A program made the position numbers. Positions 3,001-6,000 of a stretch of 9,387 nucleotides of DNA are shown here, in pieces. The DNA comes from a virus. Taxonomy: Duplodnaviria; Heunggongvirae; Uroviricota; Caudoviricetes. Within the stretch, counting starts at the first letter, position 1. Each line of letters begins with the position of its first letter. The DNA is taken from IMG/VR virus record IMGVR_UViG_2684623171_000015. The stretch is one strand, 5' to 3'.

Positions 3001-6000
3001 TCGTGATCAATCATCACGGTAGCGCTTTGCTTTATCTCTTCCACTTTGTTTCCTCCTGATGCTTATCATCTAATAATCAGTATTTTCGATAGATTATAAT
3101 CAATCAACCATTTTTTAAGATATGAGAGATCGAAAAAAAGCCGGATTGCTCCGGCTATGTGTTCACTACTTCGGTTATTCTCCAGCGCTTTTAACGTTGA
3201 TGGTTGTTACCTGTTCCGCTTCGGCAATCTCCCGTTCTGTCAGCGTGGCAAAGTTTGCCGCCGCTGTGGTCATGAATGCGCTTATCAGTTCGGGATTCTC
3301 CTTCGCGTATCCTTCCCGTGTGTGGCGGTCGATGATTTTTATCGCCACCCTCAGCCAGTGCTCTGTAAGGTCAATGGCGCGGTTATGTGGTTTCTTCTGA
3401 TTGTTCAATTTTCCTGATGTGTGCATTTTTATTTTTACCCTCGTGTTTAAAAAGTTTTAGGTTGTGGTGCACCTCCTCTACCTCTCTACCCAATCATCTT
3501 TCAGGTCAGTAATGGCGCGGCTTTCAGATGGGTAGAGGGCTTTCGTGGCCCTCTACCCATCCTCTACCCGCTCCTCACAAACGACCTTAATCATGGTGGA
3601 GGGTGTAGAGGGCTTTTATTTGCCTTCTACCTGCCCCTCTACCCACTTATCATATTGAATAATTTATATTTATTTTCTTTAGGTAGAAGAGGTAGAGGGC
3701 TTTTGTCTAAAATTATAAAAACGCGTCGCAATCATCAGTTGTAATTGCGTTGGTCTGCGTTACTCCCTTAACTCTCCGCGTAATATATTCATGTCCGTAA
3801 ACTTTTGCCGCTGGCTTCATGGCCTTGCTGAACTCAGCCACGTTTAGCGGCTTGCTTCTTCCTGCGTATGCCATAAACGCCAGATAGACGCGGTAAAGGC
3901 TGTTCCTGGTCGTGTACTTCACTGAATCGCCACCGCCACCCATCATCAGGCCGCGCGCTTCCTCCAGAAAATTCAGGAACTGGCAAAACTCAATAACCGG
4001 ATCCGTCTGTTGCTTTATTGCCAGTGCTTCATCACCGTCGCGCTGTTCCAGGAGTAAAGCCCGTGCCTTTTCAGGGTCGGCAAAGTTCGCCAGTAATCGG
4101 CGGATAATCACAGGGATTTCAGCCGCGACCTTCTCCGGCAAATCCTTGTCCTTTTCTGCCTCGCTAACGATATTGTCAAAGCGAAAAATCACCCGACGGC
4201 GTGACACACCTCCGGCCCGCTCGGTGAATATCATCGGGTTGTTGTTGGTCGCCAGTACCACCGCCCTTATTACCGTCGTGAATCGCTTCTCATATTTCGG
4301 GTTAATTTCGACGGGGTCGCCGCCCGTGATTTTCTTGATGCCCGTTCCTTCGCCTGTATATTTCGGTTGGTCAGCCAGGACGATAAGACGACTCCCGACA
4401 ACCTGCGCACGTCCACCAGCATCATCAAGCGATGTCATTTCAGCGCTTACCGTGTTCTGTTTCCCTGCCAGAAGGCTGGCTATGTGCGTGAATGTACTTT
4501 TACCGCTACCGCCGTCTCCGGTGGCCTCAATAAACATCTGCCAGTCGTACCGGTTCGCCATAATCATGTACAGCGCGGCACATATACGCATCATCTTGCG
4601 CGGGTCTTTTCCGGCTGCGTGATCAAGCCATTTGTGAAAGTTTGGCGCGTTGTCGCGAATGTTCTCCCCAGGTGCTGGTGGCGTGTACTCAATGCCGTTG
4701 TGCGTGGTGATCCAGTTCTCCGGCGTGTGCGGGGAAAATTCCCCCGTTTTCAGGTCAAGCGCACCATTGGCGAACGGCAGCAAATCGCCGGACGGCTCCC
4801 CCATTGGTTCGGCAATAACTTTTAACGCTTCAACGGCGTTATTGATCACGCGTTTGCTGAAAGTGGCCCTGTGCTCTGAATAGATCGCCACCATTTCGCG
4901 GCTAAGTTCCATTGTGCTGACCGGACACCATAACCCGCCGCGCCATACGTGAACGATTTCACTTTCAGGATGTACGCAAACGCCATCAAAGCGATCGGAA
5001 AGCAGCTGAGCGCGTTCACTGTCCGCCATCTGCGAAAGTTGCGCCTTTTGCTTTACCGGAAGCTCAACGACCAGACCTTCAGAAAGATTCTGGCGCTCAC
5101 GGGCAAGATATTCGCGCCAGTTCTCCACCTTCTGACCGTGCATTCCTTCGGGGTAAAAATTTGCATCCTGTACACCTGCCGCCGCCAGCTTCTGACCAAT
5201 CTTTTTGGTCTCCACCAAGTCCAGTTCTCCTGCCTGGTACAGCCTTACGCGTTTTTTTCCATCAGGAACAATTTGCAGTGCATCAAGTTCGGCAAGCTGA
5301 TTTGGCCCAAGCCACACAGGAGGCACATTATCGCCGGATGCGGGGCCGTCCTGCTCCTGCCACTGTTTTGCATGTGCCCACGCATCACTACCCGCGAAAA
5401 TAATCACCTCTGTGTCTTTGTGTTTTATTCCGCGTGGCTGTTTTTTTACGTTCGGTGCCAGTTTCATTTTTTACCCCTGAATACGTTAAGCATCTTTTTT
5501 ATTTCCTGAATATTGGCGCGTGCTTTCTCCCTGCTGGTTGGCTTACTGCGGGGCGCTGCCTGTACCAGAGAAAAATCACGGTTGAACTGATAAACAGGCA
5601 TAACGCAATCATATTCGTAGCCTTCACGGCGGTAAGTTACGCGCCGTTCCTCCACGCCCTTAATCATTACCGTGCCGCCGTACTTATCGCGGTAAATATC
5701 CCCGCACATGAATTTAGTGCGAGTTTTGCCGCTGGCAGTTAAGCCAGAATATTTAAGTTTCATTATTTTTATTCTCCGATAGCGTGACCTGATAAGCCGT
5801 TAATCTTCTCTGATATGCTCTCTATTTTGCTGGTGGAAATATTCAGTAATTCAGAAATGGCAAAGGTTAATCTTGTCGTTGACTCGTCACACTCGCAATT
5901 TGTCAGCGATTCAAACCAGACGTTAATAATCTCACTTACGGCATTGTTGTAAGATATTGCGCTTTGTGTGAGTTCATTCAATTCGCAAATTACGCGTTTG

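What the first reader, a model, noticed from the sequence alone, without database searches (positions are those of the whole stretch)
3470..3700. Iteron-type origin with a different repeat specificity from P4
At least nine copies of CTCTACCC/GGGTAGAG, including a 14-bp perfect inverted repeat with a 7-nt spacer and an adjacent AT-rich block, lie directly 3' of the primase/helicase gene. P4 alpha binds TGTTCACC octamers at ori/crr. This island appears to use a distinct iteron, implying a helicase with altered DNA-binding specificity and likely replicon incompatibility with P4.
Basis: partly seen in the sequence, partly recalled or inferred. Interest (0 to 1): 0.55.

Follow-up and report, generated by a model that had tools for sequence, protein, structure and literature searches.

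The report
Replication origin of an E. coli PICI
The repeat cluster is real and is almost certainly the replication origin of a small phage-parasitic island (a PICI) in the E. coli chromosome. The same origin type, with the same repeat core, was already described and shown to work in the closely related island EcCICFT073, so it is ordinary.

Summary
Nine exact copies of the hexamer TCTACC/GGTAGA lie in 3477-3696 and none elsewhere in the 9.4-kb window. Two further degenerate slots, a perfect 14-bp inverted repeat and the least stable AT-rich stretch of the window are also there. The cluster starts 17 bp after the stop codon of the 584-aa gene on the minus strand.

The window is a 9.5-kb PICI inserted between cspD and clpS, a published PICI attachment site. 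Its initiator is 93% identical to EcCICFT073 Pri-Rep. The published functional test of that island used a pri-rep fragment plus "the putative ori site"; the intergenic region downstream of CFT073 pri-rep carries the same TCTACC cores in the same layout.

In 59 distinct related origins the cores are kept (median 11) while the spacers drift. A second initiator class (RM13514 type) keeps the same geometry but uses TGTTCAC, the core of P4's octamer. Repeat type follows the initiator allele, not the integrase, alpA or downstream genes. The initiator's C-terminal domain is homologous to the P4 origin-binding domain.

This is the known PICI/SaPI origin design. The kind and its working are already known; this island is one more member. 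Interest is low.

Left open: a conserved 21-bp non-repeat block, and an N-terminal domain that may be a primase-like (Toprim) fold without the catalytic residues.

The parts
3713..5467 (-). Initiator gene (Pri-Rep type, 584 aa). Domains: N-terminal alpha/beta domain 1-135, D5_N 153-283, SF3 P-loop ATPase 316-417, C-terminal winged-helix origin-binding domain about 487-576.
   Evidence: ORF. Pfam D5_N, DUF5906 and Pox_D5. TIGR01613 matched at 107.6 bits, just under its 108.7 cutoff. PDB 7OLA (SaPI5 PriRep) E 1.9e-14 and 1KA8 (P4 origin-binding domain) E 5.7e-6. 93% identical to EcCICFT073 Pri-Rep.
3691..3696 (-). Iteron F2 (GGTAGA), 17 nt from the initiator stop codon.
   Evidence: >=90% conserved across 60 class-A origins.
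3682..3687 (-). Iteron F1 (GGTAGA), the initiator-proximal border of the AT-rich block.
3646..3681 (.). AT-rich block, the proposed DNA-unwinding element. It is flanked by two iterons on each side that point in opposite directions.
   Evidence: Least stable 37-bp duplex in the window. 30-bp windows reach 93% A+T. Same position in CFT073 and in the RM13514-type origin.
3638..3643 (+). Iteron E2 (TCTACC), the distal border of the AT-rich block.
3626..3631 (+). Iteron E1 (TCTACC).
3604..3609 (-). Iteron slot D2, degenerate in this window (TGTAGA; GGTAGA in most relatives).
3595..3600 (-). Iteron slot D1, degenerate in this window (GGTGGA; GGTAGA in most relatives).
3563..3568 (+). Iteron C2 (TCTACC).
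3552..3557 (+). Iteron C1 (TCTACC); part of the right arm of the 14-bp inverted repeat.
3527..3561 (.). Perfect 14-bp inverted repeat (3527-3540 / 3548-3561, 7-nt spacer), formed by iterons B and C1 plus their flanks.
   Evidence: Sequence; lies inside I1.
3531..3536 (-). Iteron B (GGTAGA).
3507..3527 (.). Conserved 21-bp non-iteron block CAGTAATGGCGCGGCTTTCAG; role unknown.
   Evidence: Exact in 70 loci. Present with <=4 mismatches in 79 of 80 class-A loci and in 0 of 80 class-B loci. Two copies with 3 mismatches each in the Aeromonas tecta locus L011.
3485..3490 (+). Iteron A2 (TCTACC).
3477..3482 (+). Iteron A1 (TCTACC), the outermost slot.
3428..3466 (-). Conserved leader directly upstream of the next gene, probably its translation-initiation region. 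Not part of the iteron array.
   Evidence: Conserved blocks 3428-3435, 3437-3458 and 3461-3466. No sigma-70-like promoter was found.
3175..3426 (-). 83-aa gene that follows the origin in this replication module (phrog_1231, function unknown).
   Evidence: 85% identical to its counterpart in CFT073.
5464..5763 (-). DUF4222 gene whose stop overlaps the initiator start codon. It travels with the initiator in class-A and 042-type islands.
92..102 (-). att core ATGATAGTTAT, the island boundary. The second copy lies just outside the window, beyond int.
   Evidence: Two direct copies 9468 bp apart in L001. Same core as published for the cspD-clpS PICIs.

Best explanation
Window 3477-3696 is the vegetative replication origin of a 9.5-kb phage-inducible chromosomal island (PICI) inserted between cspD and clpS.

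Proposed mechanism (inferred): after helper-phage induction, the 584-aa initiator encoded directly upstream binds the TCTACC hexamers through its C-terminal winged-helix domain. The iterons sit as pairs 8-12 bp apart in alternating orientation: 2 forward, 1 reverse, 2 forward, 2 reverse, 2 forward, AT block, 2 reverse. The 36-bp AT-rich block, held between two convergently oriented pairs, melts. [quoted passage not shown] Priming and synthesis are taken over by host (or helper) enzymes, because the protein's N-terminal domain lacks the acidic catalytic residues of a primase.

Shown here: the repeats, their statistics, their conservation and geometry, their linkage to the initiator allele, and the homology of the domains.

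Taken from the literature: function of the 93%-identical EcCICFT073 pri-rep-ori.

Inferred: which domain binds, the melting at the AT block, double-hexamer loading, and host priming.
For: 1. Statistics: 9 of 9 TCTACC/GGTAGA cores lie in 220 bp; the simulated maximum is 3. Exact octamer: 5 copies against 0.09 expected.

2. Selection on the cores: in 10 diverse origins, core columns are 78% invariant against 30% for the spacers (Mann-Whitney p 4e-10). Window versus CFT073 is 82% identical in the cores and 49% outside them. In 59 distinct IMG/VR origins there are 6-11 cores, median 11.

3. Linkage to the initiator. Class A (584 aa): TCTACC present and TGTTCAC absent in 60 origins. Class B (RM13514 type, 48% identical): TGTTCAC median 9 and TCTACC 0 in 65 regions. 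CFT073 versus 042 share int (91%), alpA (94%), DUF4222 (92%) and ssb (98%), but their initiators are 27% identical and the repeats differ (TCTACC versus CTCACTT). Window versus STEC607 differ in int (22%) and alpA (24%) but share the initiator (95%) and TCTACC.

4. Geometry is kept although the repeat sequence is swapped. Core positions after the stop codon: window 17, 26, [AT], 70, 82, 145, 156, 177, 223, 231. RM13514: 14, 24, [AT], 68, 107, 143, 152, 163, 183, 228. Orientations match.

5. The AT block is the least stable duplex of the window.

6. Protein: residues 488-576 match the P4 origin-binding domain 1KA8 (E 5.7e-6) and residues 93-432 match SaPI5 PriRep 7OLA (E 1.9e-14). The N-terminal domain is 62-69% identical between initiators with three different repeat types, so it is unlikely to set specificity. 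The C-terminal domain is 36% identical between classes A and B, and 46% between RM13514 and P4, which share TGTTCAC.

7. [quoted passage not shown] The EcCICFT073 pri-ori fragment maintained a thermosensitive plasmid at 44 C, whereas the rep mutant gave no colonies and the ori deletion gave significantly fewer (PMC6092414). [quoted passage not shown]

8. Island identity: att core ATGATAGTTAT at both ends, equal to the published cspD-clpS PICI core.
Against: - No experiment exists on this sequence.
- In the published test the ori deletion reduced colony numbers significantly; the text does not say it abolished them. The deletion boundaries are not given in the text or supplement held here.
- The AT block lies near one end of the array, not at its centre as described for SaPIs.
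- Two of the 11 slots have decayed in this window.
- Binding by the C-terminal domain is inferred from homology and covariation. The D5_N domain is equally diverged between classes (33%), so divergence alone does not single out the C-terminal domain.
- The conserved 21-bp non-iteron block shows that something besides iteron binding is selected here.
Confidence: 0.88

Rival explanations
1. The cluster is a crr-like cis-acting replication enhancer, not the place where replication starts. In P4 the iteron cluster directly 3' of alpha is crr, and ori lies 4.5 kb away.
For: In P4 the region immediately after alpha (4291-4590) is annotated crr, and ori is at about 9086-9809. The window's cluster occupies the same position relative to the initiator gene.
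Against: There is no second cluster in the island: all 9 cores are in 3477-3696. The cluster contains the least stable duplex of the window, flanked by inverted iteron pairs. [quoted passage not shown] The geometry differs from P4 crr, which is two 120-bp direct repeats.
Confidence: 0.04
2. The repeats are operators for a transcription regulator of the downstream late (interference/packaging) operon, and the region is mainly a promoter-operator.
For: It is the intergenic region upstream of the 83-aa gene and the TerS/capsid-like genes. A conserved leader lies at 3428-3466. Initiator binding could also modulate read-through from the primase gene.
Against: There is no sigma-70-like promoter on either strand. 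The repeat type follows the initiator allele and not alpA, int, DUF4222, ssb or the downstream genes. The same array sits in islands with quite different downstream modules. The AT block plus inverted pairs matches the origin design.
Confidence: 0.05
3. The cluster is a packaging signal (pac or cos) recognised by the island's small-terminase homologue.
For: The island encodes a TerS-like protein at 2065-2688, and PICIs must mark their DNA for packaging.
Against: The same array is present in cos-type islands that lack this TerS, such as CFT073. It switches with the initiator, not with the packaging module. There is no lambda/phi80-type cos match in the region.
Confidence: 0.02

Closest known systems
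EcCICFT073 Pri-Rep/ori replicon (Gram-negative PICIs; Fillol-Salom et al. 2018, ISME J, PMC6092414)
   Same: Initiator 93% identical (542/584). Same TCTACC/GGTAGA cores in the same slots and orientations after the stop codon. Same AT-rich block. Same upstream DUF4222 gene and 83-aa downstream gene. Same island layout (int, alpA, icd-like, initiator, origin, late genes). The window's att site, cspD-clpS, is one listed for PICIs.
   Different: Spacer DNA is only about 49% identical. Two slots have decayed and the slots are distributed differently: the window has two E iterons and two degenerate D slots, CFT073 has three D iterons and one E. The late module differs: a TerS-like gene plus a short HK97-like capsid gene, and no ssb or perC, against ssb, perC, major capsid and decoration genes in CFT073. 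Int is 77% and alpA 49% identical.
SaPI Rep/ori (Staphylococcus aureus pathogenicity islands; summarised in Qiao et al. 2022, PMC9371898)
   Same: SF3 self-loading helicase with a C-terminal winged-helix domain. 6-12 hexanucleotide iterons immediately downstream of rep. An AT-rich region with at least two iterons on each side pointing in opposite directions. The ATPase region is homologous to SaPI5 PriRep 7OLA.
   Different: Only distant sequence relationship. Different host phylum and different regulation (alpA activator rather than Stl repressor). The AT block is off-centre here.
Satellite phage P4 alpha protein with ori and crr
   Same: D5_N plus SF3 helicase plus a C-terminal origin-binding domain that is homologous (1KA8, E 5.7e-6; ATPase region 51% identical). 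Short iterons in both orientations. One cluster lies directly 3' of the gene.
   Different: P4 uses TGTTCACC and has two separated clusters, ori and crr. P4 alpha is 777 aa and carries the IAEGYATA Toprim motif; the window protein has IFAGSDAW with an invariant Ala at the Glu position. No sid, psu, delta or cnr genes were annotated.
EcCIRM13514-type PICI origin (class B)
   Same: Nearly superimposable slot geometry and AT block position. The initiator has the same domain order. The N-terminal domain is 69% identical.
   Different: Its iteron is TGTTCAC(C), the same core as P4. The C-terminal domain is 36% identical to the window's and 46% to P4's. The 21-bp conserved block is absent.
Origins of eukaryotic-virus SF3 helicases (SV40 large T antigen, papillomavirus E1). 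Comparison from general knowledge, not tested here.
   Same: Short repeats in inverted pairs next to an AT-rich tract direct head-to-head assembly of two SF3 hexamers.
   Different: The origin-binding domains are unrelated and sit N-terminal to the helicase, and the repeats differ. This is an analogy of design only.

Membership tests
Gram-negative PICI Pri-Rep/ori replicon (EcCICFT073 type) | Origin lies immediately 3' of the replication initiator gene. | tested here: met
   The first iteron starts 17 nt after the stop codon at 3713.
Gram-negative PICI Pri-Rep/ori replicon (EcCICFT073 type) | Two sets of iterons flank an AT-rich region. | tested here: met
   E1 and E2 (3626, 3638) and F1 and F2 (3682, 3691) flank 3646-3681, the least stable duplex of the window.
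Gram-negative PICI Pri-Rep/ori replicon (EcCICFT073 type) | Initiator homologous to a PICI Pri-Rep allele. | tested here: met
   542/584 identical to CFT073 WP_000761835.1.
Gram-negative PICI Pri-Rep/ori replicon (EcCICFT073 type) | Island context: int and alpA, unidirectional transcription, a PICI-specific att site, size about 8-12 kb. | tested here: met
   All genes from int to the capsid-like gene are on one strand. att core ATGATAGTTAT appears as direct repeats 9468 bp apart at cspD-clpS.
Gram-negative PICI Pri-Rep/ori replicon (EcCICFT073 type) | The initiator-plus-origin fragment replicates autonomously. | not testable with these tools
   Shown only for EcCICFT073 in the literature.
Gram-negative PICI Pri-Rep/ori replicon (EcCICFT073 type) | Helper-phage-dependent induction and high-frequency transfer. 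| not testable with these tools
The replicon is absent from GenBank phages and essentially absent from plasmids.
P4-type alpha/ori/crr replicon | Type I iteron TGTTCACC. | tested here: not met
   0 copies in the window; P4 has 11 exact copies.
P4-type alpha/ori/crr replicon | Bipartite cis elements: ori plus a distant crr. | tested here: not met
   There is a single cluster and no core outside 3477-3696. For P4.
P4-type alpha/ori/crr replicon | N-terminal primase domain with the EGYATA Toprim motif. | tested here: not met
   No Pfam or NCBIfam primase domain in residues 1-150. The corresponding motif is FAGSDAW with invariant A25.
P4-type alpha/ori/crr replicon | C-terminal origin-binding winged-helix domain. 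| tested here: met
   1KA8 matched at residues 488-576, E 5.7e-6; with a profile E 2.9e-6.
P4-type alpha/ori/crr replicon | P4 accessory genes (sid, psu, delta, epsilon, cnr). | tested here: not met
   None is annotated or detected. The late genes are TerS-like and HK97-like.
SaPI-type Rep/ori | 6-12 penta- or hexanucleotide iterons directly after rep, with at least 2 on each side of an AT region in opposite orientation. | tested here: met
   9 exact plus 2 degenerate hexamers; 2 + 2 around the AT block, convergent.
SaPI-type Rep/ori | Gram-positive island with an Stl-type repressor and SaPI-specific genes. | tested here: not met
   E. coli island with alpA. It works like a SaPI origin but is not a SaPI.

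The most novel reading that the evidence does not exclude
The origin may be bipartite in a way not described for PICI or SaPI origins. Besides the iterons, the invariant 21-bp block at 3507-3527 may be a second functional site, for example a host-factor or priming site, or a site read by a conserved surface of the initiator. The block is kept across class-A islands despite about 50% spacer divergence. It recurs twice in the origin-like region of an Aeromonas P4-like element that has different repeats. A second site would fit with the apparently inactive primase-like N-terminal domain, since the element would then need to recruit host priming.
Probability: 0.15. Interest if true: 0.45.

Novelty: already known. 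Interest (0 to 1): 0.2.

Why it matters
The finding adds little new. It places this O157:H7-lineage island in the EcCICFT073 replicon family and gives the working origin coordinates, which helps with annotation and with engineering PICI-based vectors.

The comparison does give a clear picture of how these origins evolve. The positions and orientations of the binding sites stay fixed, while the repeat sequence and the initiator's C-terminal domain are exchanged together. This yields at least three mutually distinct specificities among E. coli PICIs. One of them uses the core of P4's own octamer, so cross-talk between P4 and that PICI class can now be tested.

Tried and rejected
- Promoter/terminator scan of 3300-3850: no promoter-like site. 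The one weak terminator-like hairpin lies inside the 3' end of the initiator gene.
- Rfam scan of the whole window: nothing.
- Small ORFs in the intergenic region: only short mechanical ORFs.
- Lambda/phi80-type cos search: one 2-mismatch hit inside the primase gene, at chance level.
- P4 cos comparison, prompted by 4-mismatch hits of the 21-bp block in P4: no homology. The P4 hits are GC-rich hairpins.
- ssDNA folding of 3470-3700 gives z = -7.3. This follows from the inverted iterons and is not independent evidence.
- Genome-contig scan: apart from one Shigella class-A locus it returned 41-52%-identical relatives, mostly about 790-aa P4-alpha-like genes. Most show no clear repeat cluster within 450 bp of the stop codon. 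Only L010, L011 and L014/L017/L039 were informative.
- First protein search: only hits at 94% identity or more were listed. The N-terminal search returned mostly gene fragments.
- Plasmid and phage collections: no real occurrences.
- The paper's supplement gives no primers or boundaries for the ori deletion. ED1a is not in the genome collection.
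Full report
**Observation.** The sequence of 3300-3900 shows the described repeats.
- The exact octamer CTCTACCC/GGGTAGAG occurs five times, all between 3484 and 3644. Expectation is 0.09, and no shuffle of 200 reaches five. With one mismatch allowed, eight of the ten hits in the window fall in 3476-3697.
- The unit actually shared is the hexamer TCTACC/GGTAGA. There are nine exact copies, at 3477, 3485, 3552, 3563, 3626 and 3638 on the plus strand and 3531, 3682 and 3691 on the minus strand. None lies elsewhere in 9387 bp. Simulated sequences never gave more than three in any 231-bp span.
- Comparison with relatives reveals two more slots that have decayed here, 3595 GGTGGA and 3604 TGTAGA.
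- The perfect 14-bp inverted repeat is 3527-3540 / 3548-3561 with a 7-nt spacer.
- The AT-rich block 3646-3682 is the least stable 37-bp duplex of the whole window, dG -34.7 against -49.7 +/- 4.2 kcal/mol. It is bounded directly by iterons.
- The 584-aa ORF is 3713-5467 on the minus strand, so the array begins 17 nt after its stop codon.

The qualification is that 'nine copies' holds for the hexamer core, not for the octamer.

**What the window is.** The region is 100% identical to chromosomes of several E. coli strains, O157:H7 among them. In strain FRIK2455 it lies between cspD and clpS.
- All genes run on one strand: integrase, a hypothetical gene, alpA, an icd-like gene, DUF4222, the 584-aa initiator, the intergenic array, three small genes, a TerS-like gene and a short HK97-like capsid gene.
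- The 11-bp att core ATGATAGTTAT occurs at window 92-102. In the genome it forms direct repeats 9468 bp apart.
- That core and the cspD-clpS site are those listed for the PICIs EcCIIHE3034 and EcCI18098 (Table S1 of PMC6092414).

The window is therefore a phage-inducible chromosomal island, not a P4-type satellite.

**Relation to the characterised element.** EcCICFT073 Pri-Rep is 542/584 (93%) identical to the window protein. The intergenic region downstream of CFT073 pri-rep carries the same TCTACC/GGTAGA cores.

[quoted passage not shown] In their test a pri-ori fragment of EcCICFT073 maintained a thermosensitive plasmid at 44 C. The rep mutant gave no colonies and the ori deletion gave significantly fewer. 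The boundaries of their deletion are not available in the text held here.

**Comparative evidence obtained here.**
- *Conservation of the cores.* In ten diverse E. coli and Shigella origins, core columns are 78% invariant against 30% for the rest of the array (Mann-Whitney p 4e-10). Window versus CFT073 is 82% identical in the cores but 49% outside them.
- *Breadth.* In IMG/VR, 80 loci encode initiators 91-98% identical to the window's. They give 59 distinct origins with 6-11 cores, median 11. The motif is C-Y-N-TCTACC-Y.
- *A second class.* The RM13514 type (about 607 aa, 48% identical) has TGTTCAC repeats downstream: median 9 in 65 distinct regions, with no TCTACC. Class A has no TGTTCAC.
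- *Natural module swaps.* CFT073 and 042 share int (91%), alpA (94%), DUF4222 (92%) and ssb (98%). They carry unrelated helicases (27%) and different repeats, TCTACC versus CTCACTT. The window and STEC2018-607 differ in int (22%) and alpA (24%) but share the initiator (95%) and TCTACC. The repeat type follows the initiator and nothing else.
- *Geometry.* The positions and orientations of the cores after the stop codon are almost superimposable between class A and class B. Window: 17, 26, AT, 70, 82, 145, 156, 177, 223, 231. CFT073: 17, 26, AT, 72, 94, 105, 114, 145, 156, 178, 224, 233. RM13514: 14, 24, AT, 68, 107, 143, 152, 163, 183, 228. A Morganella P4-alpha-like gene with TGTTCAT repeats shows the same start: two iterons, an AT block, then an inverted iteron.

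A layout that stays fixed while the repeat sequence is replaced is hard to explain except by a protein-DNA assembly with fixed architecture.

**The initiator.**
- Pfam finds D5_N (153-283), DUF5906, which is the SF3 P-loop (316-417), and Pox_D5 (487-575).
- PDB searches match SaPI5 PriRep 7OLA over residues 93-432 (E 1.9e-14) and the P4 origin-binding domain 1KA8 over 488-576 (E 5.7e-6; with a profile 2.9e-6).
- Domain-wise identity between the window and RM13514 is 69% (N-terminal), 33% (D5_N), 56% (ATPase) and 36% (C-terminal). RM13514 and P4, which share the TGTTCAC core, are 46% identical in the C-terminal domain; the window and P4 are 32%.
- The four TGTTCA-type proteins (P4, RM13514, L010, L014) share the segment GNAxIxPxxxR+YLYHAY and a DWLP tail. 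The TCTACC class lacks both.
- The N-terminal 135 residues are 62% identical to the N-terminus of the RepA-family helicase of EcCI042, which has a third repeat type. This domain is therefore unlikely to set specificity.

The proposal that the C-terminal winged helix reads the iterons rests on this covariation, and on P4 and SaPI biochemistry known from the literature (and my own knowledge of P4 alpha). It was not tested here.

The P4 alpha motif IAEGYATA corresponds in pattern to IFAGSDAW, with an Ala that is invariant in 26 homologues, and no DxD motif is conserved. From my own knowledge, the Glu of that motif is needed for P4 primase activity. My reading, which is tentative, is that this is a Toprim-like remnant without catalytic residues, and that priming is left to host DnaG or to the helper.

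**Mechanism proposed.** After induction, the initiator binds the iterons through its C-terminal domain. The iterons are arranged as pairs 8-12 bp apart in alternating orientation. The AT block between the convergent pairs E1/E2 and F1/F2 melts. The SF3 helicase self-loads there, probably as two hexamers. This is the SaPI model transferred to this element. The steps beyond sequence anatomy are inferred.

**Rivals.**
- *A crr-like enhancer.* In P4 the cluster 3' of alpha is crr. [quoted passage not shown]
- *An operator or promoter role.* This is not supported. No promoter-like site was found, and the repeats do not follow alpA or the downstream genes.
- *A packaging site.* This is unlikely because the array is shared by islands with different packaging modules.

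**Comparison with what is known, and novelty.** The feature meets every sequence-testable criterion of the Gram-negative PICI origin and works like a SaPI origin. It fails three defining features of the P4 replicon: the octamer, the ori-plus-crr pair, and the primase motif. The same replicon type, with the same repeat core, is already published and functionally tested, so I rate it already known and of low interest.

**Points not found in the text and supplements I could read** (Fig. 2a itself is an image and is not held):
- the conserved slot geometry across initiator classes with swapped repeats;
- the use of the core of P4's octamer by class-B PICIs;
- the apparently inactive primase-like N-terminal module, shared by three initiator types;
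- an unexplained 21-bp block (3507-3527). It is exact in 70 loci, is absent from class B, and is present twice with three mismatches each in an Aeromonas tecta element whose repeats differ.

**Note on wording.** Different iterons predict that this replicon and P4 do not cross-react, which in plasmid terms means compatibility rather than incompatibility. Up to three class-A origin regions co-reside in one E. coli chromosome, so islands with the same repeat type are at least tolerated together while integrated.

Noticed in passing
window 3507-3527: A 21-bp non-iteron block (CAGTAATGGCGCGGCTTTCAG) is kept in nearly all class-A origins although the neighbouring spacer DNA drifts. It is absent from class-B origins. 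It is present twice, with 3 mismatches each, downstream of a P4-alpha-like gene in Aeromonas tecta (L011 3952 and 4097), whose repeats are different. No promoter, RNA family or ORF explains it.
   Followed up: partly
[not shown]
   Followed up: partly
L044 8055-8545 (EcCIRM13514) and L126-L205: A second class of E. coli PICI origins uses TGTTCAC(C), the same core as P4's type I iteron, with nearly the same slot geometry as the window. Its initiator's C-terminal domain is 46% identical to P4 alpha's. Cross-activation between P4 and these PICIs seems possible.
   Followed up: partly
L043 5725-5924 (EcCI042): An island with nearly the same int, alpA, DUF4222 and ssb as EcCICFT073 carries a RepA-family (DnaB-like) helicase in place of the SF3 initiator. 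The repeats downstream of it are CTCACTT. The replication module has been exchanged as a cassette.
   Followed up: partly
window 3727-3749 and 3713-3726: A weak terminator-like hairpin (8 pairs, 3 G-C) followed by a T-run overlaps the last codons and the stop of the initiator gene. It recalls the t-alpha terminator between alpha and crr in P4.
   Followed up: no
window 979-2688: The late module differs from EcCICFT073. It has a TerS-like gene (Terminase_2, phrog_641) and a short 307-aa HK97-like capsid homologue, and no ssb, perC, decoration or lambda-type cos. This suggests a pac-type PICI with a capsid-remodelling protein.
   Followed up: no
window 92-102; L001 5694-5704 and 15162-15172: The att core ATGATAGTTAT forms direct repeats that bound a 9468-bp island at cspD-clpS. 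The window stops at the integrase start codon, just short of the second copy.
   Followed up: yes
E. coli genome collection: 176 of 5426 complete E. coli genomes carry a match to this origin region. Some have two or three places, all chromosomal. The replicon is absent from GenBank phages and has only two doubtful hits among plasmids.
   Followed up: partly
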